NCBI GenBank assembly: GCA_002439805.1
Contig: DJPQ01000002.1
Location: 2,448-66,447, forward strand
From: Bacteroidales bacterium UBA6408
GTDB taxonomy: Bacteria > Bacteroidota > Bacteroidia > Bacteroidales > UBA932
DNA: 64,000 bases
Direction of reading: 5' to 3'
Made by a program: the position numbers and the translations under genes. This document shows, piece by piece, positions 46,765 to 57,745 of this stretch. The stretch's first letter is position 1. Each line of letters begins with the position of its first letter. A model generated the notes under the pieces. That model searched no databases. It was not told the DNA's origin and saw nothing but the letters and a program-made list of their open reading frames with translations.

Positions 46765-47856
46765 ATGGCAGAAAACAACTCATTGCTTGCGAAAGTCCTC
46801 GGACTCAGGGAAAAATACGAGTCGCTCCAGACCCAGCTTTCGGATCCGGACGTGATTTCCGACATGAAGAAATATGTCCAGCTCAACAAGGAATACAAGG
46901 AGCTGTCGCCAATCATAAAGGCCGGCGAGGAGTACAGGAAGCTCGTCGAATCCTATGAGATGGCCAAGGAAATCATCGCGGAGGAAAAGGACGAGGAGCT
47001 CAGGGAGATGGCAAAGGAGGAGATAGCGGAGATTGAGCCGCAGCTTCCCGAGATGGAGCAGAAAATCAAGCTCCTGCTCATCCCGGCCGACCCTCAGGAC
47101 AGCAAGAACGCCATTCTGGAAATCCGGGGAGGAGCCGGCGGCGACGAGGCGGCCATCTTTGCCGGAGACCTGTTCAGGATGTACAGCAAGTATTTCGAGC
47201 GCCGCGGCTGGAAGATGGAAATCAACAGCCAGTCGGAGGGCGCGGCCGGCGGATTCAAGGAAATCGTCGTGAAGGTCATCGGAGAGGGAGTCTATGGGGT
47301 GCTGAAATACGAGTCCGGAGTTCACCGCGTGCAGCGGGTGCCGCAGACCGAGACGCAGGGCAGGGTCCACACCTCGGCGGCTTCGGTGGCGGTGCTTCCG
47401 GAGGCGGACGAGTTCGACATCGAGCTGAACATGAACGACATCCGCAAGGACACATTCTGCTCTTCAGGCCCGGGAGGCCAGTCCGTCAACACGACCTACT
47501 CGGCAATCCGCCTCACCCACATCCCCTCCGGAATCGTGGTGCAGTGCCAGGACGAGAAGTCGCAGCTCAAGAACTTCGACAAGGCTCTCGCCGAACTCCG
47601 AACGAGGCTCTATAATATGGAGTACGAGAAATATCTGAACGAGATTTCCGCCAAGAGAAAGACCATGGTCTCCACCGGCGACCGCTCGGCGAAAATCCGC
47701 ACCTACAACTACCCGCAGTCCCGCGTGACCGACCACCGAATCAACTATACTATGTATAACCTTCCGGTCTTTATGGACGGCGACATCCAGGAGCTGCTTG
47801 ACCAGCTGCAGATTGCCGAGAACGCCGAACGACTAAAAGCCGCAGGCGAAGAGTGA
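46765..47856 (+). CDS. prfA: peptide chain release factor 1
   Basis: GGQ motif ([12 protein letters not shown]). RF1-type tripeptide region [18 protein letters not shown], i.e. PxT rather than the SPF of RF2. Confidence 0.92.
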
Positions 47857-47928
47857 CGGCGGGGCGCATAACTTGGAACTTTCTTCAGAATGAGTTGAAG
47901 TAAAGTTTGGTTTAGAAGTGAGCACATC

Positions 47929-47965
47929 AAAATGTCCGATTTTCTTTAAGAATTTCGGACATTTT
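47929..47965 (+). terminator. hairpin plus T-tract at the left island edge (probable prfA terminator)
   Basis: Perfect 11-bp stem aaaatgtccga / tcggacatttt with a 15-nt loop, running into attttatt. Confidence 0.5.
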
Positions 47966-48022
47966 ATTGCTGTGTCAAGAAGAAAATCGTATCTTCGCAC
48001 TACGAATCATTTTATCACAAAG

Positions 48023-48607
48023 ATGATACTAACAAAGGAAATACGGAATATAATAAGTAGTAACGAACCGAATAAGCTTTATATGGTGAGTGATTTTTCC
48101 CATCTGAATAATGACGGGTTGGTTACTCGCGCCCTTTCTCGTCTGGAAAAGGAAGGTGTTCTTATACGCCTCTCGCAAGGCATATATTTATATCCGTCAC
48201 GAAATAAGTTCGGAATACTTCGACCCTCTATAGAGGAAATCGCTTATGCTGTTGCTGAAAAGGATAAGGCACGCATTATTCCCAGTGGGCTGACTGCATT
48301 GAACAAATTGGGACTTTCCACACAGGTTACGATGAATGCGGTCTATTTGACAGATGCGGCTGCACGGGAACTTACTATCGGAAACCGTAAAATCACATTC
48401 AAACGCAGTGCTCCCCGCAATTTTGCTTATAAGACAGACTTGTTTCCGCTTATAGTCGCAGCAATGAAAGAATTAGGTAAAGACGGAGTAACCGATGAAC
48501 AAGTTGCCATCATAAAACAAGCCATTGAAAAACAGGGCGGCTCTGATGAAATCAGATACGATTACAGCATCGCTCCGCAATGGATTAAACAAAGACTTGC
48601 ATTATGA
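48023..48607 (+). CDS. AbiEi-type (DUF6088-like) antitoxin of a type IV TA / abortive infection pair
   Basis: 194 aa from MILTKEIRNII. Pattern ...ALSRLEKEGVLIRLSQGIYLYP....P...EIAYAVAEKDKARIIPSGLTALNKLGLSTQV....YLTD is typical of AbiEi-like transcriptional antitoxins. The stop overlaps the AbiEii ATG (ATGA). Confidence 0.7.
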   Translation: MILTKEIRNIISSNEPNKLYMVSDFSHLNNDGLVTRALSRLEKEGVLIRLSQGIYLYPSRNKFGILRPSIEEIAYAVAEKDKARIIPSGLTALNKLGLSTQVTMNAVYLTDAAARELTIGNRKITFKRSAPRNFAYKTDLFPLIVAAMKELGKDGVTDEQVAIIKQAIEKQGGSDEIRYDYSIAPQWIKQRLAL

Positions 48608-49392
48608 ACTTCACTAAACTTACAAAAGAAGAACAACTCACCATTTTGGCTAATGTCGCCGAAAATAAAGGGATTGTGGACAATGCCGTAGAGAAGGACT
48701 ATTGGGTCAGTATGGTATTACGTGCCATATTTTCTTTGCCGTATGCTACAGCTTTTGTATTCAAAGGAGGGACAAGCCTTAGCAAAGGATGGGGACTGAT
48801 AGAACGGTTCTCAGAAGATATTGACCTTGCAATAGATCCAAAACATCTCGGTTTCACAGACATTGCGACTAAAAGCCAACGGACTAAATTACGGAAAGAC
48901 TCCAAGAAGTTCATAGACAGTACTTTTGCGCTCGACATTAAGAATAGGCTAAAAGAGTTTGGGGTACTGGAATGTTGCGATGTCATAGTCCCAGAAACGT
49001 CTGTCAGCGACCTCGACCCTGTAGTCCTGTTTGTCGAATATGATTCGGTGCTGCAAACAAAAATGCAATATATACCGGAACGTGTCAAAGTTGAGATAAG
49101 CTGTCGTTCACTCATGGAACCGTCGGAAAAAGTAGAGATTCGTTCGATGATTGAAGATGCTTATCCCGACGAAGATTTCTCTCAGCCGACATTTATAGTC
49201 CCCACAGTAGTGCCCGGAAAGACATTCTTGGAAAAGGTTTTTCTCTTGCACGAAGAGTTTAATCGTCCCAATGGCTGCACGCATATTGAACGTATCACAC
49301 GACACATGTACGACATTGTAAAGATGATGGATAAACCGTTTGCGATGGAAGCGATGCAGAATGCACAATTATACGAGGACATAGTGGTATGA
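48604..49392 (+). CDS. AbiEii/AbiGii family nucleotidyltransferase toxin
   Basis: FKGGTSLSKGWGLIERFSEDIDLAID is the NTase signature of the AbiEii family; 262 aa. The stop overlaps the next ATG (ATGA at 49389). Confidence 0.8.
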   Translation: MNFTKLTKEEQLTILANVAENKGIVDNAVEKDYWVSMVLRAIFSLPYATAFVFKGGTSLSKGWGLIERFSEDIDLAIDPKHLGFTDIATKSQRTKLRKDSKKFIDSTFALDIKNRLKEFGVLECCDVIVPETSVSDLDPVVLFVEYDSVLQTKMQYIPERVKVEISCRSLMEPSEKVEIRSMIEDAYPDEDFSQPTFIVPTVVPGKTFLEKVFLLHEEFNRPNGCTHIERITRHMYDIVKMMDKPFAMEAMQNAQLYEDIVV

Positions 49393-50387
49393 CAGAAATT
49401 CATGTTGATATAAACGAAACGGAGATTTTCAAACTTTATCCCGAAGTATTGGAACTTTTACTCAAAGACCACACGACAGGACGGAATATCTTTTGGGCGA
49501 CGGATTCGTATGCACATAGGGGCGGTGGCTTTCAATATAGCGACGCCATAACAGCGGAACATATCATTGGGGAAAACGGGATGGTGATACGACCGCGTTC
49601 ATTAAAGAGCAAAGGAGAACAGACAGAACGCACAAAGGGAATGGCAGAGGTGTTTACACCGTCATGGGTCTGTAACGTTCAGAACAATCTTGTGGACGAG
49701 GCTTGGTTCGGAAGAAAAGATGTATTCAATACCGTTGACGACACTCAACATACTTGGATAGCCAATCCTGACAGAATTGTTTTCCCGGACAAAAAGACAT
49801 GGAAGTCATATATCCGGGCGACAAGAATGGAAATCACCTGCGGCGAAGCCCCTTACCTTGCCAGCCGTTATGATACGACAACCGGGGCTCCGATAGAATT
49901 GGGACAACGCATCGGAATGCTTGACAGAAAACTGCGTGTGGTCAGCGAAAACACAAAGACGAGCGGTGAATGGCTTAACATGGCGCAGGATGCCTATAAA
50001 AATATATATGCCTACGAATGGCAGGGAGACAATCTGCTTTTAGCACGAGAAGCGCTATTGGTCTCTTTTGCGGAATACTATTATGCGAAATTCGGGAAAA
50101 TGCCGTTGGCAAAATCTCTACAATATATAGCCTATATCATTTCTTGGAACGTCTGGCAAATGGACGGGCTTAAGGGAGTTGTGCCCGGCAGCTGCAAGAA
50201 TGGGGTTAAAGTCACCACACAAAGTTTATTCGGGACTACAGAGAGTATCGAGCATTGTTCTGGTTGTCGCAATGGTAATTTGAAAGAACACAATGGCATT
50301 TATTGCCTGATAAGGGATTGGGGATTAAAAGACCCAAAAACGGGAGAGAATAACAGAAAAATAAGGTTCATAGACATGATAAAATAA
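49389..50387 (+). CDS. hypothetical protein with N6-adenine-MTase-like N-terminal lobe motifs but no (D/N)PPY
   Basis: 332 aa with a motif-X-like MAEVFTPSWVCNVQNN and a motif-I-like RMEITCGEAPYLASRYD. No NPPY/DPPY anywhere. C-terminal HCSGC. The TP.W.V.N...N pattern recurs in the downstream giant protein (ETVLTPWRVVNMHIN). Confidence 0.5.
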   Translation: MTEIHVDINETEIFKLYPEVLELLLKDHTTGRNIFWATDSYAHRGGGFQYSDAITAEHIIGENGMVIRPRSLKSKGEQTERTKGMAEVFTPSWVCNVQNNLVDEAWFGRKDVFNTVDDTQHTWIANPDRIVFPDKKTWKSYIRATRMEITCGEAPYLASRYDTTTGAPIELGQRIGMLDRKLRVVSENTKTSGEWLNMAQDAYKNIYAYEWQGDNLLLAREALLVSFAEYYYAKFGKMPLAKSLQYIAYIISWNVWQMDGLKGVVPGSCKNGVKVTTQSLFGTTESIEHCSGCRNGNLKEHNGIYCLIRDWGLKDPKTGENNRKIRFIDMIK

Positions 50388-50399
50388 AAGTTGTATGAT

Positions 50400-53300
50400 A
50401 TGGCAACATTTGAGACCAGCTTAAAATCCAGACTGATATATGTCTTTGCTATCCCAGATGAATGGCATAAAGACTGTCTGAAAGTGGGCGAAACGACATT
50501 GGAGGAGGATGACGGAAACTTTCCTTTGCCCAATAGTGAGGTGCTTAACAAAGCGGCGCATAATCGTATAGACCAATATACAAAGACGGCAGGTATTGCC
50601 TATAACCTGCTTCATACGGAAATGACTGTGTTTTTCAAAGGTGGAACAATCAGCTCCTTCAACGATAAGCAGGTACACAGCGTATTGGAGCGTTCAGGTG
50701 TGAAGAAAAAGACGTTTGATACGGTAAAAGGGGCGAACGAATGGTTTTGCTGCGACCTTGAGACAGTCAAGAAAGCGATTCAGGCGATTAAGAACGGGAA
50801 AGACAGTCTGAATGCAAGTGAAATCAGTCATACTCAAACTCCTATAGTCTTCCGCCCAGAACAGCAGGCAGCTATTGACAAGACAAAGAAGCAGTTCAAG
50901 AAAGGCTCACAAATGCTTTGGAATGCAAAAATGCGTTTCGGCAAGACCTTATGCGCCCTGCGTGTGGCAAGGGATTTAGATATGCGACGCACCATTATCC
51001 TTACCCACCGTCCCGTAGTTGACGAGGGATGGTTTGAGGATTTCGGTAAGATATTCTATGACCGCCAAGACTATCATTACGGCTCGCGCACTAAAGGTGA
51101 AAGTTTCGCTTCCCTTGAACGGATGGCAGAAAGAGGTGACAAGTACGTCTATTTTGCTTCCATGCAAGATATGCGTGGAGCTCAACTGGTTGGAGGAAAG
51201 TTTGATAAAAATGATGATGTGTTCTCCACCGAATGGGATTTTCTGATTGTGGATGAAGCCCACGAAGGAACACGTACAGAACTTGGAGAGACCGTTATCA
51301 AGGAGTTGACCAAAACAAACACGAAAGTGCTTAAACTTTCAGGGACACCATTCAATCTGCTTGATGATTACACAGAAGAGGAAACGTACACTTGGGATTA
51401 CACCATGGAGCAGCGTGCCAAGACTGAATGGGACTTGTTGCACATGGGCGACCCCAATCCGTATGTTTCTCTACCTGCCATCAATATCTGCACCTACGAT
51501 CTCGGAGCGTTGATGAATGATTATTCCGATGATGAAAAGGCTTTCAATTTCCGTGAGTTCTTCCGCACAAAGGAAGACGGGACTTTCATTCACGAAAATG
51601 ATGTGGATAACTTCTTATCGCTACTGTGCAAGGATGACAAGGAAAGCCTTTATCCTTATTCCAACGACCTGTATCGTGGCATATTCCGCCATACGCTTTG
51701 GGTGCTTCCGGGTGTCAAGGCCGCCCGTGCATTGAGTGCGAAACTGAAAGAACATCCTATATTCGGCTGCTTCGAGATTGTCAATGTAGCCGGAAACGGT
51801 GATGAAGACGAGGAAAATGCAGACGCATTGCAAATGGTAAACACAGCCATAGGCAATAATCCTGATGAGACATTCACCATTACCCTGTCCTGCGGACGAC
51901 TGACAACAGGAGTGAGCATAAAGCCATGGACAGCTGTATTCATGATGGCAGGGTCTTTCAGTACATCTGCAGCAGGTTATATGCAGACCATATTCCGTGT
52001 ACAGACACCTTTTACCTGCAAGGGACGAATGAAGGAACAATGCTATGCTTTCGACTTTGCGCCAGACCGTACCTTGCGAATGTTGGCTGAGGTTGCTAAA
52101 GTCTCGGCTAAGGCCGGAAAGTCAACGGAAGAAGACCGCAAGATTTTAGGCGATTTTCTGAATTTCTGCCCTATCATATCCATTGAAGGCTCACAAATGA
52201 AGCCATACGATGTAAACAAAATGATGGGAGAGCTCAAGAAAGCCCAGATAGAAAAGGTTGTACAATGCGGTTTCGAAGACGGGGCATTGTACAATGATGA
52301 GCTGCTCAAACTTACGGATGTGGACCTTGCAGATTTCAAGAACCTGAAAGGCATCATCGGCAAGACAAAGGCCATGCCCAAGTCAGGTGATATTGATGTC
52401 AATAATCAAGGATTTACAAACGAGGAGTACGCGGAAAAAGAAAAACTTGAAAAGAAGCCCAAACGGGAGCGCACTCCAGAGGAGCAGGCTCGGTTAGACG
52501 AATTGAAGAAGCGTCATAACCAACGTAAAGATGCAATTTCAATACTGCGTGGTATCTCCATCCGTATGCCGCTGCTTATTTTCGGAGCGGAACTGAAAAA
52601 TGAAGCTGAAGAGATAACCATAGACAACTTTGCAAACCTTGTGGACGACACCTCTTGGACAGAGTTCATGCCTCAAGACGTCACTAAAGAAGTTTTTGCC
52701 AAGTTCAAACGCTTCTACGAGCCCGACGTATTCCGTGAAGCAGGCAAGCGTATCCGCGCTATGACTCGTGCTGCCGACAAGTTCAGCATAGAGCAGCGCA
52801 TCGAACGTATTGTCGGCATATTCAATACATTCCGCAATCCCGACAAAGAAACGGTCTTGACACCATGGCGTGTTGTCAATATGCACATCAACGATTGCTT
52901 GGGTGGATGGTGCTTTATGGATGAAGAGTTTAAGATTCCGTTGGAAACGCCGCGCTTTGTGGACAAGGGCGAGGTAACGCATTCCGTATTCAGAACGGAC
53001 AGCCTGATTATGGACATCAACTCGAAGAGCGGTCTTTATCCATTGCTCGCCGCTTATAACATTTACCGTAACCGTTTGGAGGCAGCCAAAGAAAAATATG
53101 GAGAATTCAGCAATGCCTTTTCAATGCAGCTATGGGATTTGACCATTGAACAGAATATCCTCGTGGTATGCAAGACCCCAATGGCGCGCAGCATTACACG
53201 TCGTACACTCGTCGGCTTCCGCGACACGGAAGTACATGCCGAATATTATAAGAACTTAATTGAAAACATATCCCAGAATCCTGACCTTGTGGTAAATACA

Positions 53301-54380
53301 CTTCGTGACGGCAAGTATTTCTGGGGCATAAACAGCAATGAATATATGACTATAGACGCCATTATAGGAAACCCTCCGTATCAGGAGGAGGGTATAAGTA
53401 CTCGTAAAGCACCTATCTATCACTTGTTTTACGACATTTCTTTCCGTTTGTCAGATAGAGTATCATTGATAACACCCGGGCGTTTTTTGTTCAAGGCGGG
53501 ACAAACGCCCAAAGAATGGATGGATAGGATTTTGGAAGACCGACATTTTAAGGTGGTGGATTACTTCCAAAAGTCAACGGACATATTCCCGTCTGTCGAT
53601 ATAAAAGGCGGCGTTGTAATCACTTGTCGTGATGCCAAGGCTGAATTTGAGCCAATCGGATTCTTTTCTGAATATGATGAATTAAAGAGTATTCTGCAAA
53701 AGGTGTTATCACATAAAGACTTTGTCAAGAACGAATTTAGCAATCTCGTATCTTCTCAAGGCCTTTATAAATTTTCAGAGGCGGCATTTAATGAACATCC
53801 TGAAATTTACGCAGTCCAAGGGAATGGAACTGCTGCAAAAATAACCTCAAATACGTTTGAACGCCTTCCTCATGTATTCCAAACGGAAGTGCCGGATAAT
53901 CCCGATGCTTTCATACGTATTTTGGGCCGGTCTCAAAATAAACGTGTCTATAAATGGATTGAGAAACGATATGTTTTACCAACTGACGGCTACTGTGAAT
54001 CTTTCAATGTTCTTGTCCCGGAAGCCAATGGAACGGGGTCAATCGGTGAAGTGCTCAGCACGCCGGTAATCGGCGTGCCGGTAATCGGGCACACCGACAC
54101 CTTCCTGAGCATCGGCAAGTTTACCGATGCCCAGCAAGCTGATCGGTGTCTCAAATACGTCAAGACAAAATTTGCCAGATGCATGTTGGGAACATTGAAA
54201 GCCACACAGCACAACCCACGTGAAACTTGGGCAAATGTGCCGATGCAGGATTTCACCTCTGAGAGTGATATAAATTGGAACACTCCTATGTCTGAAATAG
54301 ACAAGCAATTATACACCAAATACCGGCTCTCGAACGAGGAAATTCGGTTTATTGAACAGAATATCAAGCCGATGGAGTAA
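50400..54380 (+). CDS. fused GIY-YIG/T5orf172-like nuclease + SF2 (ResIII/DEAH) helicase + gamma-class N6-adenine MTase-like + TRD protein (Type ISP-like R-M enzyme)
   Basis: N-terminus LIYVFAI....CLKVGET....HNRI....ANEWF is GIY-YIG-like. Helicase motifs: I AKMRFGKT, II LIVDEAHEG, III LSGTPFN, VI YMQTIFRVQTP. MTase-like motifs: X VLTPWRVVNM, degenerate I LIMDINSKSGLYPL, IV IIGNPPYQ, then Eco57I-type SLITPGRFLFKAG...DIFPSVDIKGGVVI. Start set at ATG 50400; the track used TTG 50391. Confidence 0.8.
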   Translation: MATFETSLKSRLIYVFAIPDEWHKDCLKVGETTLEEDDGNFPLPNSEVLNKAAHNRIDQYTKTAGIAYNLLHTEMTVFFKGGTISSFNDKQVHSVLERSGVKKKTFDTVKGANEWFCCDLETVKKAIQAIKNGKDSLNASEISHTQTPIVFRPEQQAAIDKTKKQFKKGSQMLWNAKMRFGKTLCALRVARDLDMRRTIILTHRPVVDEGWFEDFGKIFYDRQDYHYGSRTKGESFASLERMAERGDKYVYFASMQDMRGAQLVGGKFDKNDDVFSTEWDFLIVDEAHEGTRTELGETVIKELTKTNTKVLKLSGTPFNLLDDYTEEETYTWDYTMEQRAKTEWDLLHMGDPNPYVSLPAINICTYDLGALMNDYSDDEKAFNFREFFRTKEDGTFIHENDVDNFLSLLCKDDKESLYPYSNDLYRGIFRHTLWVLPGVKAARALSAKLKEHPIFGCFEIVNVAGNGDEDEENADALQMVNTAIGNNPDETFTITLSCGRLTTGVSIKPWTAVFMMAGSFSTSAAGYMQTIFRVQTPFTCKGRMKEQCYAFDFAPDRTLRMLAEVAKVSAKAGKSTEEDRKILGDFLNFCPIISIEGSQMKPYDVNKMMGELKKAQIEKVVQCGFEDGALYNDELLKLTDVDLADFKNLKGIIGKTKAMPKSGDIDVNNQGFTNEEYAEKEKLEKKPKRERTPEEQARLDELKKRHNQRKDAISILRGISIRMPLLIFGAELKNEAEEITIDNFANLVDDTSWTEFMPQDVTKEVFAKFKRFYEPDVFREAGKRIRAMTRAADKFSIEQRIERIVGIFNTFRNPDKETVLTPWRVVNMHINDCLGGWCFMDEEFKIPLETPRFVDKGEVTHSVFRTDSLIMDINSKSGLYPLLAAYNIYRNRLEAAKEKYGEFSNAFSMQLWDLTIEQNILVVCKTPMARSITRRTLVGFRDTEVHAEYYKNLIENISQNPDLVVNTLRDGKYFWGINSNEYMTIDAIIGNPPYQEEGISTRKAPIYHLFYDISFRLSDRVSLITPGRFLFKAGQTPKEWMDRILEDRHFKVVDYFQKSTDIFPSVDIKGGVVITCRDAKAEFEPIGFFSEYDELKSILQKVLSHKDFVKNEFSNLVSSQGLYKFSEAAFNEHPEIYAVQGNGTAAKITSNTFERLPHVFQTEVPDNPDAFIRILGRSQNKRVYKWIEKRYVLPTDGYCESFNVLVPEANGTGSIGEVLSTPVIGVPVIGHTDTFLSIGKFTDAQQADRCLKYVKTKFARCMLGTLKATQHNPRETWANVPMQDFTSESDINWNTPMSEIDKQLYTKYRLSNEEIRFIEQNIKPME
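53350..53383 (+). repeat. inverted repeat, left copy (inside the expressed gene, on the IDAIIGNPPYQ codons)
   Basis: ctatagacgccattataggaaaccctccgtatca. Its reverse complement occurs at 55454..55487 with one mismatch (T/G). Confidence 0.9.
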
Positions 54381-54383
54381 ATG

Positions 54384-54422
54384 TTTGGCGTAATAAGTGA
54401 AAGTTCAACATATTACGCCAAA
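54384..54422. terminator. symmetric hairpin between the two convergent cassettes
   Basis: tttggcgtaata / tattacgccaaa perfect 12-bp stem with a 15-nt loop. It sits 4 nt after the stop at 54380 and 14 nt after the minus-strand stop at 54436, so it can serve either orientation. Confidence 0.6.
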
Positions 54423-54435
54423 TTCATTATTACTA

Positions 54436-55518
54436 CTAGTTCCCTTGTTTTTCCATAAGCACATCCTTGATAAGACTCTGTTCTTCTGTATTAATGTCAA
54501 ATAGAGAATAAAGTTGATAATCAATATCTTTCTTGAAATCCAAAATGCCATTGTCGTTCGTATAGTCCAATATATCAGGAACTAATTTGGCAAGGGAAGT
54601 CAATGCTTCGTCAGTTAGTAAAAAAGCGTAGCGAATAAGTTTGCTGTTGCAATAATCGAAAAAATTTAGGGCCTCTTGCTCCGTGAAAAATGTTTTAAGA
54701 GCAACTCTTGAACGCCCAAATGCACTACGGTTGTCCATCACCGCTATTTGATTGCTACGTTTCTGCCCACCGGCATTGGCACTTGACACAACTACTTTCC
54801 ACCGTGCTAATTGTTCTTTTCCTGTGGTTATGACATTCTTACTCGCCACATACCATTTTGCTCTACCGCTTTTGCCGGCCTTGTCGTTGGTAAACAACTT
54901 AATCTCATCATCTGACAGTGGTTCGCCTTCTTGATATTCACGCACCAATGTAGGGTTAGTTTCAACGAAATCACTTTCAATGGAAAATAATTTTTGAGAT
55001 AGAATAGAATCGTGTAAAAACGCAAATCGTTCTGATACACCCCGTTTAATCTTGGCGGCGATGCTAATATCCAATGGATTAAGAGGCATAAGGTCGTCTC
55101 TGGGGTTCGCTGCCTGTATTTGATGGGAGACTCCAGATTTTGAATAGATATAGGTAAATCCATCATTCTTTTTACTCATATCCTTGAAAACAATGGAAAT
55201 ACCATCTGCGATAGCGACGTCTTTGAAAATATCGGCCGAGTTCGGGAAATAATGCAGTTGTATTAAATGAGGGTCATTTATCTGTTCTAATCCAAATTGT
55301 TCCATGCCTTTCCCTGAACGATGAATCCATCGTCCTCCAGGGTAAATCAAAGCTGTGTATCTTGCAAGTCTATCACTGATAGTTTGAAAATGTTGAAAAA
55401 TACTTGAACTCCTTTTTTGTCCATTATCCGTATCAGCCTTTGCAACAGTTACTTGATACGGCGGGTTTCCTATAATGGCGTCTATAGGAACTACTCTGCC
55501 TATATTAGCATAGGCAAT
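54436..55518 (-). CDS. silent alternative C-terminal cassette (MTase motif IV to TRD), with no start codon or promoter of its own
   Basis: The minus frame is open from the in-frame TAA at 55519-55521 and reads IAYANIGRVVPIDAIIGNPPYQVTVAKADTDNGQKRSSSIFQHFQTISDRLARYTALIYPGGRWIHRSGKG...DIFKDVAIADGISIVFKD.... It is collinear with aa about 985-1326 of the big protein but strongly diverged after NPPYQ. No ATG lies upstream of the NPPY region; the track's M at 55350 is a TTG. Confidence 0.75.
   Translation of the reverse strand: MAYANIGRVVPIDAIIGNPPYQVTVAKADTDNGQKRSSSIFQHFQTISDRLARYTALIYPGGRWIHRSGKGMEQFGLEQINDPHLIQLHYFPNSADIFKDVAIADGISIVFKDMSKKNDGFTYIYSKSGVSHQIQAANPRDDLMPLNPLDISIAAKIKRGVSERFAFLHDSILSQKLFSIESDFVETNPTLVREYQEGEPLSDDEIKLFTNDKAGKSGRAKWYVASKNVITTGKEQLARWKVVVSSANAGGQKRSNQIAVMDNRSAFGRSRVALKTFFTEQEALNFFDYCNSKLIRYAFLLTDEALTSLAKLVPDILDYTNDNGILDFKKDIDYQLYSLFDINTEEQSLIKDVLMEKQGN
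55454..55487 (-). repeat. inverted repeat, right copy (on the IDAIIGNPPYQ codons of the silent cassette)
   Basis: Forward tgatacggcgggtttcctataatggcgtctatag is the reverse complement of the left copy, except for one base. Confidence 0.9.
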
Positions 55519-55547
55519 TTATATTTTACCCATTAACTAGAACAGAT

Positions 55548-56354
55548 ATGGACACAAGTGAATTTGAAGCATTCCTGAAGCAGGAAAATCTAGCTAAGAA
55601 CACCATTACAGCCTACATATATGCTGTGAAAGATTATTTTGTTCATTACAAGGGACTGAATAAATGCAATCTCATTGCCTACAAAAATCTCCTGACAGAT
55701 AATTTCAAGCCCAAGACTGTAAACCTCCGGATATTGGGTTTGAACAAGTATCTGGGATATATCGGCAAATCTAAGTTACATTTGAAAACCATAAAAGAGC
55801 AACAGTGCACTTATCTGGAAAATATCATCAGTAATGCCGATTACGAGTTTATGAAAAAACGTCTGAAGATGGAGAAAAACCAGACATGGTACTTTGCCGT
55901 GCGATTTCTTGCCGCTACCGGAGCAAGAATAAGTGAACTGATTCACTTGAAGGCAGAGCATATCTCAACTGGATATTTCGATATCTACTCCAAAGGCGGT
56001 AAAGTGCGCCGCATCTACATTCCAAAGCAGTTGTGTACTGAAAGTAATGCGTGGCTATCAGGCCAGAGACGCTCCGATGGTTATATTTTCTTGAATCAAT
56101 ACGGCCAGCGACTCACAACAAGAGGCATTGCACAACAGCTGAAGAAGTATGCCGTAAAATATGGTTTGAATGAGAAAGTTGTTTATCCTCATTCTTTTCG
56201 ACATCGTTTTGCAAAGAATTTCTTAGAAAAGTTCAATGATATATCCTTACTTGCCGACCTCATGGGACACGAAAGTATTGAAACCACTCGCATCTACCTA
56301 CGCCGCAGCAGCACTGAACAGCAACAGATAGTCGACAAGGTGATAACCTGGTAA
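55548..56354 (+). CDS. tyrosine site-specific recombinase (shufflon/invertase-type, XerC/D-like)
   Basis: 268 aa with an N-terminal SAM-like core-binding domain. Catalytic signature ATGARISEL (Arg), HSFRHRFA (His-x-x-Arg), GHESIETTRIYL (His...Tyr). Confidence 0.87.
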   Translation: MDTSEFEAFLKQENLAKNTITAYIYAVKDYFVHYKGLNKCNLIAYKNLLTDNFKPKTVNLRILGLNKYLGYIGKSKLHLKTIKEQQCTYLENIISNADYEFMKKRLKMEKNQTWYFAVRFLAATGARISELIHLKAEHISTGYFDIYSKGGKVRRIYIPKQLCTESNAWLSGQRRSDGYIFLNQYGQRLTTRGIAQQLKKYAVKYGLNEKVVYPHSFRHRFAKNFLEKFNDISLLADLMGHESIETTRIYLRRSSTEQQQIVDKVITW

Positions 56355-56470
56355 AATACGCCCTTTTATCCCTGCGGCATTGGCATAGATGTCAAGTCAA
56401 TAAGTACGAGTGCAGTATTGAATAGTCCAAGACATTTTTTGATTAGCACATAAGTCTGCACACATAAAAA

Positions 56471-56563: not shown

Positions 56564-57745
56564 CTACAATGCCCGACTCAGCCGCTCAAGGCCGGCGAGG
56601 AGGAGGGAGCGGGGACAGGCGATGTTGAGGCGGATGAAGTTCTCGCCGCCGGGACCGTACATGGAGCCGGAATTGACCATTAGTTTCTGCTCGTCAAGCA
56701 GGAGCGCCGTGACCTCGTCGGCGTTCAGCCCCGTCGCGCTGATGTCAATCCAGACGAGATAGGTGCCTTCGAGTTCCGTGACGGGACACTGAGGGATGTG
56801 CTCGGAGAAAAAGACCTTGACCGTCATATAGTTGTCATAGAGGTAGCCGCGCAGCTCATCCAGCCAGTCGGCTCCCTCCGGAGAGTATGCAGCGAGGGTC
56901 GCCTCTACTCCGAACGGGTTCACGTCACAGACCTCGTTGATGTTGATTGCACGGTCTATGCGGGAGAGGATTTCGCAATCCTCCGCGATTATGTTCGCAA
57001 TCTGAAGTCCGGCGATGTTGAATGCCTTGCTCGGTGAGATGCAGGTGGCGGAGCCGAGCCTGAAAGCCTTGCCGAGAGAGGCGAAGGGAGTGTAGTCGTG
57101 TCCGGGGTAGGTCAGCTCGCAGTGAATCTCGTCGGAAATTACGAACACATTGTTCCTCAGACATATTTCCCCGACTCCGCGCAGTTCCTCCTCAGTCCAC
57201 ACCCGCCCGACGGGATTGTGGGGATTGCACAGAATCATAACCTTCGCCTTCTGGTCGGAGGCCTTCGCCTCAAGGTCGTCGAAGTCCATTCTCCACGAAA
57301 GTCCGTCGCGGAGAAGCCGGTTCGGGAGCATCTCGCATCCGTTGTTGCGGATGGACGAGAAGAAGCAGTTATAGACCGGAGGCTGCACTATGACCTTGTC
57401 TCCCGGGCGGGTCAGCGCCTTGATAATCGCTGAAATTGCAGGTACCACGCCGCTCGTGCAGATGAACCGGTCGCGCTCGAAGCGCACGCCGTGACGCTCT
57501 CTGAACCAGTCGATTACGGCATCATAGTAGGACTGCGGAACCTTGACATAGCCGAAAATCCCATGCTCTACCCTGCGGCGCAGCGCTTCAGTCACGCAGG
57601 GCGCCGTCCTGAAGTCCATGTCCGCGACCCACATCGGCAGCACGCCTTCCGCCGGGGTGTCCCATTTGTAGGAATTTGTCCCGCGCCTCGGAACTATCTC
57701 ATCAAAATTGTATTTTCCCATTTTCTCTAACATTTTACCCGCCAT
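56564..57745 (-). CDS. MalY/PatB family PLP-dependent cystathionine beta-lyase / aminotransferase
   Basis: N-terminus KYNFDEIVPRRGTNSYKWD and MWVADMDF. PLP-lysine context ISPSKAFNIAG. The start may be one of the nearby Met codons (57745, 57733, 57721). Confidence 0.85.
   Translation of the reverse strand: MAGKMLEKMGKYNFDEIVPRRGTNSYKWDTPAEGVLPMWVADMDFRTAPCVTEALRRRVEHGIFGYVKVPQSYYDAVIDWFRERHGVRFERDRFICTSGVVPAISAIIKALTRPGDKVIVQPPVYNCFFSSIRNNGCEMLPNRLLRDGLSWRMDFDDLEAKASDQKAKVMILCNPHNPVGRVWTEEELRGVGEICLRNNVFVISDEIHCELTYPGHDYTPFASLGKAFRLGSATCISPSKAFNIAGLQIANIIAEDCEILSRIDRAININEVCDVNPFGVEATLAAYSPEGADWLDELRGYLYDNYMTVKVFFSEHIPQCPVTELEGTYLVWIDISATGLNADEVTALLLDEQKLMVNSGSMYGPGGENFIRLNIACPRSLLLAGLERLSRAL

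What the first reader, a model, noticed from the sequence alone, without database searches (positions are those of the whole stretch)
53350..55487. Recombinase-driven shufflon that swaps the MTase-motif-IV-to-TRD half of a helicase-nuclease-methyltransferase fusion
A 34-bp sequence (ctatagacgccattataggaaaccc[t/g]ccgtatca) occurs twice in inverted orientation, at 53350-53383 and 55454-55487. Both copies lie on the codons I-D-A-I-I-G-N-P-P-Y-Q and in the same phase. The left copy is inside the expressed roughly 1326-aa gene. The right copy heads a convergent 360-codon open frame that has no ATG or promoter, with an in-frame TAA 10 codons upstream of the repeat. After NPPYQ the two C-terminal modules are collinear homologues: ITPGRFLFKAG vs IYPGGRWIHRSG, DIFPSVDIKGGVVI vs DIFKDVAIADGISI, and IDKQLY vs IDYQLY near the end. 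They are otherwise highly diverged, as expected for alternative target-recognition domains. A symmetric hairpin sits between them, and a tyrosine recombinase gene starts 60 nt outside the right repeat. Inversion between the repeats would make an in-frame fusion of the constant N-terminal 985 aa to the alternative module. This is the logic of hsdS shufflons in Type I systems, here applied to a single-polypeptide helicase-containing enzyme, with crossover at the catalytic NPPY codons. I am not aware of that arrangement having been described.
Basis: partly seen in the sequence, partly recalled or inferred. Interest (0 to 1): 0.9.

Follow-up and report, generated by a model that had tools for sequence, protein, structure and literature searches.

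The report
Invertible specificity switch in restriction enzyme
A small recombinase-linked DNA segment can probably flip to give a large single-protein restriction-modification enzyme a different DNA-recognition tail; the flip is seen directly in close relatives, and this kind of switch is already known for related enzymes.

Summary
A 34-nt inverted repeat (33/34) lies on the IDAIIGNPPYQ codons of a 1326-aa gene and of a promoterless, start-less convergent 349-codon cassette. A tyrosine recombinase gene starts 60 nt outside the right arm.

The inversion reading is strongly supported, though not for this exact copy. In two sister elements (N-terminal part 94% identical) public assemblies hold both orientations in the same flanks, with the segment between the arms 99.95-100% identical only when reverse-complemented. 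Arms evolve in concert, silent cassettes are under purifying selection (dN/dS 0.05-0.11), and recombinase and cassette always co-occur. Three related contigs end inside the repeat. The window's own element was seen twice, both times in one orientation.

The enzyme has a weak GIY-YIG-like N-terminus, an SF2 helicase, a gamma-class adenine methyltransferase and a target-recognition domain. Its best structural match is to Type ISP enzymes (LlaBIII/LlaGI).

The novelty claim is overstated. Programmed inversions that swap the C-terminal specificity part of single-polypeptide restriction-modification enzymes, helicase fusions included, were reported in 2023 and 2025. I rate this a well-documented new member of a known kind.

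The parts
49389..50387 (+). Conserved 332-aa partner gene (M332). It is annotated elsewhere as 'restriction endonuclease subunit M' or 'Type II methyltransferase'. It has motif X-like and motif I-like sequences but no NPPY (IISWNVWQ instead). Its role is unresolved.
   Evidence: PADLOC MTase_II 4e-115 with no Pfam hit. Database names. Immediately upstream of the large gene in 79 of the 80 related loci, in the same orientation in 78; divergently oriented in L072 and about 1 kb upstream in L090. AF2 pLDDT 86 with no significant PDB fold match; the weak top hits are BrxX/PglX, DrdV and LlaBIII.
50400..53349 (+). Constant part of the large restriction-modification gene (residues 1-983). It holds a weak GIY-YIG/T5orf172-like N-terminus, an SF2 helicase (GKT, DEAH), a helical coupler region, and the first half of the gamma-class adenine methyltransferase (motif X, motif I).
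   Evidence: Pfam ResIII 1.9e-14 and Eco57I 2e-25. T5orf172 0.0015, below cut-off. Foldseek top hits are Type ISP LlaBIII 4xqk (8e-16) and LlaGI 5ffj. Hundreds of invariant columns.
53350..53383 (+). Left arm of the inverted repeat, on the codons T-I-D-A-I-I-G-N-P-P-Y-Q (methyltransferase motif IV). Proposed crossover site.
53384..54380 (+). Currently expressed variable module A (class alpha). It holds the rest of the methyltransferase core (motifs V-VIII), the target-recognition domain and the C-terminal helix, then the stop codon.
   Evidence: Translation. C-terminal modules are 19-32% identical between classes while the N-terminal parts are 64-96% identical. Very few invariant columns after NPPYQ.
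54384..54422 (.). Symmetric hairpin between the two convergent modules. Likely a bidirectional terminator that serves whichever module is expressed.
   Evidence: 15-nt arms, 93% complementary. -19 kcal/mol on both strands, z about -5. Not present in all relatives (L003 has only 6 nt between cassettes).
54436..55453 (-). Silent alternative module B (class beta). It is intact and collinear with A, and has no start codon or promoter of its own.
   Evidence: Translation. Pfam Eco57I positions 76-171, 1.4e-11. 59-74% identical to the C-termini of full-length homologues elsewhere. Silent cassettes have dN/dS 0.05-0.11.
55454..55487 (-). Right arm of the inverted repeat, heading the silent module in the same codon phase.
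55548..56354 (+). Tyrosine recombinase (268 aa), the presumed invertase. The R, K, HxxR, H and Y catalytic residues are visible in the sequence.
   Evidence: Pfam Phage_integrase 4.4e-27. NCBIfam XerA/XerC/XerD-like, below cut-offs. In related loci it is present 60-80 nt outside the right arm wherever a second inverted NPPY copy exists, and only there.

Best explanation
**What it is.** This is a two-state programmed DNA inversion switch (a minimal shufflon) in a single-polypeptide, ATP-dependent restriction-modification enzyme with Type ISP-like architecture.

**How it works.**
- The tyrosine recombinase encoded just outside the right arm synapses the two 34-bp arms, which lie on the motif IV (IIGNPPYQ) codons.
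- It inverts the 2.07-kb segment between them.
- Because both arms are in the same codon phase, either orientation gives a full-length protein. The constant 984-residue part (nuclease, helicase, first half of the methyltransferase) is joined to module A (now expressed, 1326 aa) or module B (now silent, 1333-aa fusion).
- Each module supplies the second half of the methyltransferase core plus a very different ~210-residue target-recognition domain.
- The flip should therefore change the DNA sequence that the enzyme both methylates and restricts. A clonal population would then hold two phage-defence specificities, and possibly two methylomes.

**Shown:** the anatomy; inversion at this exact site in two sister elements; concerted evolution of the arms; selection on silent cassettes; recombinase linkage.

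**Inferred:** that this particular copy still flips; that the adjacent recombinase is the catalyst; that the modules set DNA specificity.
For: - **Anatomy and in-frame fusion.**
- **Both orientations in nature for relatives whose constant part is 94% identical.** L003 vs L009: flanks 99.96% identical (9950 and 2616 nt), and the 1982-nt middle is 99.95% identical inverted versus 28.8% direct. L008 vs L012: 5085 nt is 99.8% direct and 2048 nt is 100% inverted. The arm sequences stay in place, so the crossover lies inside the identical core.
- **Both protein isoforms are abundant.** The clusters have 430 and 534 members.
- **Concerted evolution.** Arms differ by 0.67 nt within a locus and by 3.65 nt of 29 between loci, at synonymous sites. 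Permutation p = 2e-5.
- **Silent cassettes are intact in all 9 distinct loci** and have dN/dS 0.05-0.11, like expressed ones.
- **Linkage.** Recombinase and inverted cassette co-occur perfectly among 91 loci.
- **Assembly breaks.** Three related contigs (L032, L062, L064) end inside or at the end of the repeat.
- **Mosaic pattern.** Close relatives with 92-96% identical constant parts carry C-terminal modules only 25-52% identical.
- **Fold.** Best match is the Type ISP enzymes LlaBIII/LlaGI over ~1350 columns, then CamA, BrxX and DrdV (methyltransferase plus target-recognition domain).
Against: - The inverted form of this exact element is not in the 5.8-billion-cluster protein collection. The best full-coverage hit to the predicted fusion is 77% identical.
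- The exact B-junction 43-mer is not in the JGI metagenomes.
- The only other sighting (L001, 99.69% identical) has the same orientation. That is just two observations.
- The window's arms carry one mismatch (T/G).
- No activity of enzyme or recombinase has been measured.
- The N-terminal nuclease assignment is below Pfam's threshold.
- Motif I of the methyltransferase is atypical (INSKSGLYPL).
- How the constant partner protein M332 fits with a switching specificity is unexplained.
Confidence: 0.8

Rival explanations
1. The architecture is a genuine shufflon, but this copy is locked or decaying. It was inherited with the defence island and no longer flips at an appreciable rate in this host.
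For: - Both sightings of this element have the same orientation.
- There is one mismatch between the arms in the window.
- The island here lacks the Thoeris and mobilisation genes that follow the recombinase in relatives, so it has been trimmed.
Against: - The recombinase ORF is full length with catalytic residues.
- The silent module is an intact 349-codon frame.
- The sister strain L001 has perfectly identical arms.
- A single mismatch is also seen in L072.
- Two observations cannot establish locking.
Confidence: 0.12
2. Inversion happens, but by general homologous recombination across the 30-34-bp identity. The neighbouring tyrosine recombinase is instead the integrase of the mobile island.
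For: - Relatives sit on mobilisable elements (Mob_Pre, DUF3987, HTH_17) inserted at different chromosomal sites.
- For pneumococcal hsdS, inversion independent of known site-specific recombinases has been reported (title of PMC6620402).
Against: - The recombinase is found only where the inverted cassette exists, always 60-80 nt from the right arm. This holds down to 58% recombinase identity and in an isolate genome of another family (Capnocytophaga, L072).
- It persists in the window, where no mobilisation genes remain.
- It is a small 268-aa Xer-like enzyme without an arm-binding domain.
- 30-34 bp is a poor substrate for RecA-mediated exchange (general knowledge).
Confidence: 0.05
3. There is no programmed inversion. 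The repeat merely reflects protein-level conservation of motif IV between a gene and a truncated paralogue or pseudogene remnant.
For: The repeat lies on the most conserved peptide of the family: GNPPYQ is invariant in 50 homologues.
Against: - Arms match at synonymous positions that vary freely between loci.
- Identity stops abruptly at both ends.
- Orientation isomers exist in identical flanks.
- Silent cassettes show strong purifying selection and no disruptions.
Confidence: 0.03

Closest known systems
Programmed inversions in single-polypeptide Type II/IIG restriction-modification enzymes: DISARM DrmMI-like enzymes including an SNF2-helicase fusion, Cj0031 homologues, and BREX PglX (Milman, Yelin and Kishony 2023, PMC9881135); and two Bacteroides fragilis Type IIG enzymes (PMC13064476, 2025)
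   Same: - Inverted repeats inside the coding sequence of a fused methyltransferase/specificity protein.
- A silent partial copy in opposite orientation.
- A nearby recombinase.
- Inversion replaces the specificity-bearing part while keeping the N-terminus.
[quoted passage not shown]
   Different: - None of the eleven long-read-confirmed loci is described as a GIY-YIG-like/ResIII-helicase/Eco57I protein with the 332-aa partner.
- The placement of the crossover on the NPPY codons, so that half of the catalytic core is swapped, is not discussed there.
- PglX in L. rhamnosus swaps a middle part by nested inversions. Here a single inversion swaps the whole C-terminus.
Type I hsdS shufflons (S. pneumoniae SpnD39III, B. 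fragilis, Mycoplasma)
   Same: Tyrosine-recombinase-linked inversion between expressed and silent specificity cassettes, giving alternative restriction and methylation specificities in a clonal population.
   Different: - There only target-recognition domains of a separate S subunit are exchanged. The repeats lie in the conserved spacer regions of hsdS, and several cassettes give 4-8 or more states.
- Here the specificity domain is part of the enzyme itself. The catalytic motifs IV-VIII travel with it, and there are two states.
Type ISP restriction-modification enzymes LlaGI / LlaBIII
   Same: - Single polypeptide with the order nuclease, SF2 ATPase, coupler, gamma-class adenine methyltransferase, target-recognition domain.
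- Best structural match (4xqk 8e-16, 5ffj 6e-10, ~1350 aligned columns).
   Different: - No sequence-level match to them.
- The N-terminal nuclease looks GIY-YIG/T5orf172-like rather than Mrr/PD-(D/E)xK.
- About 250 residues shorter.
- Always accompanied by the 332-aa partner gene.
- I found no paper in the searchable library that links Type ISP enzymes to inversion switching.

Membership tests
Gene-altering programmed inversion (shufflon-type switch) | Inverted repeats, one inside the expressed gene and one heading a silent partial copy in the same reading phase | tested here: met
   34-nt arms, same phase, in-frame 1333-aa fusion after in-silico inversion.
Gene-altering programmed inversion (shufflon-type switch) | Both orientations exist in otherwise identical genomic context | tested here: inconclusive
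   Met for two sister elements. Not observed for the window's own element, which has only two sightings, both in the same orientation.
Gene-altering programmed inversion (shufflon-type switch) | Dedicated site-specific recombinase linked to the invertible segment | tested here: met
   A Phage_integrase-family ORF lies 60 nt from the right arm. It co-occurs perfectly with the inverted cassette across 91 loci. Catalysis itself was not tested.
Gene-altering programmed inversion (shufflon-type switch) | Within-population coexistence of variants in a clonal culture | not testable with these tools
   Needs read-level data. Contigs ending inside the repeat are only suggestive.
Type ISP restriction-modification enzyme | Single polypeptide with SF2 ATPase, coupler, gamma-class N6-adenine methyltransferase and C-terminal target-recognition domain, in that order | tested here: met
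   Pfam ResIII and Eco57I. Full-length structural alignment to LlaBIII/LlaGI. NPPY motif present.
Type ISP restriction-modification enzyme | N-terminal Mrr-like PD-(D/E)xK nuclease | tested here: not met
   The N-terminal 160 residues give only weak T5orf172/MUG113 (GIY-YIG superfamily) hits, E 0.0015-0.009, below cut-off. This region was not in the structure model.
Type ISP restriction-modification enzyme | One-strand methylation of an asymmetric site, and ATP-driven translocation with cleavage on head-to-head collision | not testable with these tools
   Biochemical properties.
Type IIG restriction-modification enzyme (database label) | Nuclease and methyltransferase in one chain with shared target-recognition domain | tested here: inconclusive
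   PADLOC REase_MTase_IIG 2.3e-39, but over the C-terminal 375 residues only. The helicase domain is not typical of Type IIG. Nuclease activity is unproven.

The most novel reading that the evidence does not exclude
This would be the first documented specificity switch in a translocating, Type ISP-like single-chain restriction enzyme, and the flip may change more than the recognition sequence.
- The two cassettes always belong to different deep classes (alpha, beta or gamma), only 19-32% identical even in the catalytic half.
- So the two states could differ in methylation geometry, in target strand, or in how they cooperate with the constant methyltransferase-like partner M332, which lacks a recognition domain.
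- M332 would then have to work with either module. That would be a modular 'one engine, two heads, one helper' design not described for any restriction-modification class.
Probability: 0.2. Interest if true: 0.6.

Novelty: new member of a known kind. Interest (0 to 1): 0.45.

Why it matters
- **Scope of specificity switching.** Inversion-based switching would extend beyond Type I S subunits, BREX PglX and Type IIG enzymes to a large, widespread family of helicase-containing single-chain enzymes. At least 355 species-level genomes, mostly Bacteroidales, encode a relative.
- **Experimental handle.** The natural A/B, C/D and A'/C module pairs on a constant scaffold would let one map which residues set DNA specificity in an uncharacterised enzyme family.
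- **Gut and rumen biology.** It is another source of within-strain heterogeneity in phage defence, and possibly of epigenetic phase variation.
- **Annotation.** Stand-alone ~300-350-aa 'Eco57I/methyltransferase' ORFs next to such genes are probably silent cassettes, not genes.

Tried and rejected
- **Inverted form of this exact element, protein level.** I queried the 5.8-billion-cluster protein collection with the predicted 1333-aa fusion. No hit combined a highly identical N-terminal part with a highly identical module B.
- **Inverted form, DNA level.** An exact 43-nt search for the B-side junction in JGI metagenomes found 0 matches.
- **Solved structures by sequence.** The PDB search found no relative of the large protein or of M332.
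- **Family libraries.** NCBIfam has no family for the large protein, the cassette or M332. Pfam finds nothing in residues 330-930, in either target-recognition domain, or in M332.
- **M332 fold.** Foldseek found nothing significant. The best E was 0.2, to the BrxX/PglX methyltransferase, so its methyltransferase label stays unverified.
- **Promoter and terminator scan of 54.2-55.7 kb.** Counts were no higher than in shuffled sequence. This does not show the absence of a promoter, because Bacteroidales promoters are not sigma-70 type.
- **Milman et al. supplement.** I wanted to check whether this family is among their predicted loci, but the supplement is not held. Goldfarb et al. 2015 (BREX) is not held either.
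- **Integrase rival.** I did not find the mobile element's own integrase within the stored flanks, so I could not rule this rival out that way.
- **Rejected: internal dyad CTATA-N8-TATAG as recombinase core site.** It sits in the window's left arm but is not conserved in the right arms of relatives.
Full report

Yes. The best inverted repeat in 49-58 kb has arms at 53350-53383 and 55454-55487. It is 34 nt long with 33/34 matching, and 2070 nt lie between the arms. A 29-nt core of it occurs exactly twice in the 64-kb window at up to three mismatches, where shuffles give none. When the two arms are laid side by side in coding orientation, identity is complete inside the repeat apart from one T/G. 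It drops to random levels at once on both sides.

The left arm lies in a 1326-codon gene (ATG 50400, stop 54380) on the codons T-I-D-A-I-I-G-N-P-P-Y-Q. The right arm, on the other strand, lies on P-I-D-A-I-I-G-N-P-P-Y-Q in the same phase. It heads a frame that stays open for 349 codons to a stop at 54436-54438. Upstream of it there is an in-frame TAA and no ATG, GTG or TTG before the repeat.

Inverting 53350-55487 in silico gives an uninterrupted 1333-residue protein. A 268-residue tyrosine recombinase gene (Pfam Phage_integrase, 4e-27) starts 60 nt outside the right arm. The hairpin between the two convergent modules (54384-54422) folds at -19 kcal/mol on either strand, z about -5.

**2. What is the gene?**

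- **Domains by sequence.** Pfam finds a ResIII/DEAD helicase domain (residues 153-321) and an Eco57I-type gamma-class adenine methyltransferase domain (921-1066). PADLOC calls the C-terminal 375 residues 'Type IIG REase-MTase'. The first 160 residues give only sub-threshold T5orf172/MUG113 hits, which belong to the GIY-YIG nuclease superfamily.
- **Fold.** An AlphaFold model of residues 130-1326 (mean pLDDT 73; the methyltransferase region scores 80-95) matches best the Type ISP enzymes LlaBIII (4xqk, E 8e-16) and LlaGI (5ffj) over about 1350 aligned columns. The next matches are methyltransferase-plus-recognition-domain proteins: CamA, BrxX/PglX and DrdV. There is no sequence-level match to any solved structure.
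- **Conclusion.** The protein has the Type ISP domain order (nuclease, SF2 motor, coupler, methyltransferase, target-recognition domain) but a different nuclease head. I treat 'works like Type ISP' as likely and 'is a Type ISP enzyme' as not established.
- **Where the repeat sits in the fold.** It lies at strand beta-4 and motif IV. The swapped module therefore carries motifs V-VIII plus the whole recognition domain.
- **The two modules.** A and B are 36% identical over the first ~100 residues, unrelated over the middle ~210, and weakly similar in the last ~25.

**3. Does it invert?**

The family gives direct evidence.

- **Search with the predicted fusion.** This returned thousands of ~1330-residue homologues, mostly from Bacteroidales. 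Splitting the comparison into the constant part, module A and module B shows a mosaic. Relatives whose constant part is 92-96% identical to the window's carry C-terminal modules only 25-52% identical. B-like modules (59-74% identical) are the normal C-termini of other full-length proteins.
- **Gene order.** The contigs that encode two such relatives (P0015, P0022; constant part 94% identical to the window's) have the same order as the window: AbiEi, AbiEii, a 332-residue gene, the large gene, a reverse partial Eco57I ORF, and the recombinase.
- **First isomer pair.** L003 and L009 lie in the same chromosomal site. Their left 9950 nt and right 2616 nt are 99.96% identical. The 1982 nt between their repeat arms is 28.8% identical as written and 99.95% identical after reverse complementation. 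Six loci have one orientation and three the other.
- **Second isomer pair.** L008 versus L012 behaves the same way: 5085 nt is 99.8% direct and 2048 nt is 100% inverted.
- **Crossover position.** The slightly different outer ends of the two arms stay in place in both isomers. The exchange therefore happens inside the 30-nt identical core.

**4. Indirect evidence that the site is maintained for recombination**

- **Concerted evolution.** Across nine distinct loci the two arms of one locus share the same synonymous codon choices (GGA/GGC, AAC/AAT, CCT/CCG/CCA, CCG/CCA/CCT, GAC/GAT). These choices differ between loci. Arms differ by 0.67 nt within a locus and by 3.65 of 29 nt between loci, permutation p = 2e-5. 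The loci are not phylogenetically independent. However, the modules attached to the arms are anciently diverged, so shared descent cannot explain the identity.
- **Selection on silent cassettes.** Every silent cassette is an intact frame of 333-344 codons. Silent cassettes compared between loci have dN/dS 0.05-0.11, the same as expressed ones.
- **Linkage.** The scan of one representative genome per species found 355 stretches in genome contigs that encode a relative. Of the 80 stored loci, only a minority carry a second, inverted NPPY copy. Exactly those loci have the recombinase 60-80 nt beyond the right arm. This holds down to 58% recombinase identity and in a Capnocytophaga isolate genome.
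- **Assembly breaks.** Three related contigs end inside or exactly at the distal end of the repeat (L032, L062, L064). This is what assemblers produce when both orientations are present.

**5. What is not shown**

The window's own element has been seen only twice: in the window and in L001 (99.69% identical over 14.85 kb). Both are in the same orientation. No protein in the collection combines this constant part with module B, and the B-junction 43-mer is absent from the JGI metagenomes. Activity of this copy is therefore an inference from its intact parts. No enzymatic property has been measured for any family member that I could find.

**6. Surroundings**

The segment from about 47.9 to 56.4 kb has 39-46% G+C, against 51-57% in the flanks. 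It lies between a release-factor gene and an aminotransferase gene, so it is an acquired defence island.

In relatives the same block continues with Thoeris genes (ThsB TIR, ThsA Macro), Mob_Pre, DUF6371, DUF3987 and HTH_17, and sits at different chromosomal sites. That makes it a mobilisable element. Those genes are missing in the window.

The 332-residue gene upstream of the large gene is present in all 80 related loci, immediately adjacent in 79 of them (in L090 it lies about 1 kb upstream; in L072 it is divergently oriented). Databases call it 'restriction endonuclease subunit M'. It has motif X-like (EVFTPSWV) and motif I-like (EITCGEAPYL) sequences, an invariant SWNxWQxDG where NPPY would be expected, and a conserved Cys/His cluster. 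It has no significant structural match. Its role next to an enzyme whose specificity switches is unexplained.

**7. Comparison with what is known**

- **Single-chain enzymes, 2023.** The step to single-chain enzymes has been made in the literature. [quoted passage not shown] That is the NCBI name of this family. With long reads they confirmed eleven inversions in single-polypeptide Type II RM enzymes, including one fused to an SNF2 helicase, and in BREX PglX.
- **Bacteroides fragilis, 2025.** A study observed inversions of the recognition-domain coding sequence in two Type IIG enzymes (PMC13064476).
- **What appears not to be described.** This particular family, its Type ISP-like build, and the crossover on the NPPY codons appear undescribed in the searchable library. 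I could not check the supplementary tables of the 2023 study.

**8. Verdict**

- **Observation:** confirmed.
- **Mechanism:** supported at family level by direct orientation isomers, and likely for this copy (about 0.8).
- **Novelty:** a new, well-documented member of a known kind of switch, not a new principle.
- **Interest:** moderate. It rests on the natural module pairs on a constant scaffold in an uncharacterised, widespread enzyme family, and on the unexplained constant partner protein.

Noticed in passing
window 47900-56400: The whole block (AbiEi, AbiEii, 332-aa gene, large RM gene, silent cassette, recombinase) has 39-46% G+C against 51-57% in the flanks. It is an acquired defence island inserted between a peptide-chain release factor gene (46765-47856) and an aminotransferase gene (56564-57745).
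   Followed up: partly
window 49389-50387: The 332-aa partner gene lies upstream of the large gene in all 80 related loci, immediately adjacent in 79 of them. It is labelled a methyltransferase in databases but has no NPPY motif (invariant SWNxWQxDG instead). It has a conserved Cys/His cluster (C269, C290, C293, H301, C306), no Pfam family and no significant structural match. How a constant partner works with a switching specificity module is unexplained.
   Followed up: partly
L002-L011 (e.g. L002 12914-17969); L008 8031-12576: In close relatives the recombinase is followed by Thoeris genes (ThsB TIR, ThsA Macro) and by Mob_Pre, DUF6371, DUF3987 and HTH_17. The block sits at several different chromosomal sites, so it is a mobilisable defence element. 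The window's copy lacks all of these.
   Followed up: no
module comparison across WIN, L003, L008, L014, L015, L017, L019, L020, L072: C-terminal modules fall into three deep classes, 19-32% identical between classes. In every locus with a switch the two cassettes belong to different classes (alpha/beta or gamma/alpha). The same module (99% identical) is expressed in one element (L003) and silent in another with a different partner (L008), so cassettes are also exchanged between elements.
   Followed up: partly
window 54436-55512 (-); PADLOC model PDLC03375: A 348-position PADLOC 'Type II methyltransferase' model aligns end to end with the silent cassette. Gene callers annotate such cassettes as stand-alone 289-352-aa proteins. 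These database entries are probably silent shufflon cassettes rather than independent methyltransferases.
   Followed up: no
L072 9936-10976 (Capnocytophaga bilenii isolate): Here the invertible segment is 3.1 kb and holds an extra 346-aa ORF between the expressed gene's end and the silent cassette. The 332-aa partner gene is in the opposite orientation.
   Followed up: no
L032, L062, L064 contig ends: Three MAG contigs stop inside or exactly at the end of the NPPY-codon repeat. This suggests mixed orientations in those samples.
   Followed up: partly
window 55497-55516: A small hairpin (TGCCTAT-ATTAGC-ATAGGCA, -8.7 kcal/mol, z -1.8) followed by a T-rich run lies between the right arm and the recombinase start. 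It is not significant on its own. It may insulate the recombinase gene or be part of its control region.
   Followed up: partly
window 53375 vs L001 7864: The sister strain L001 has G where the window has T in the left arm, which makes its two arms identical. This is one of only 46 differences in 14.85 kb. It could be a trace of gene conversion during an earlier inversion.
   Followed up: partly
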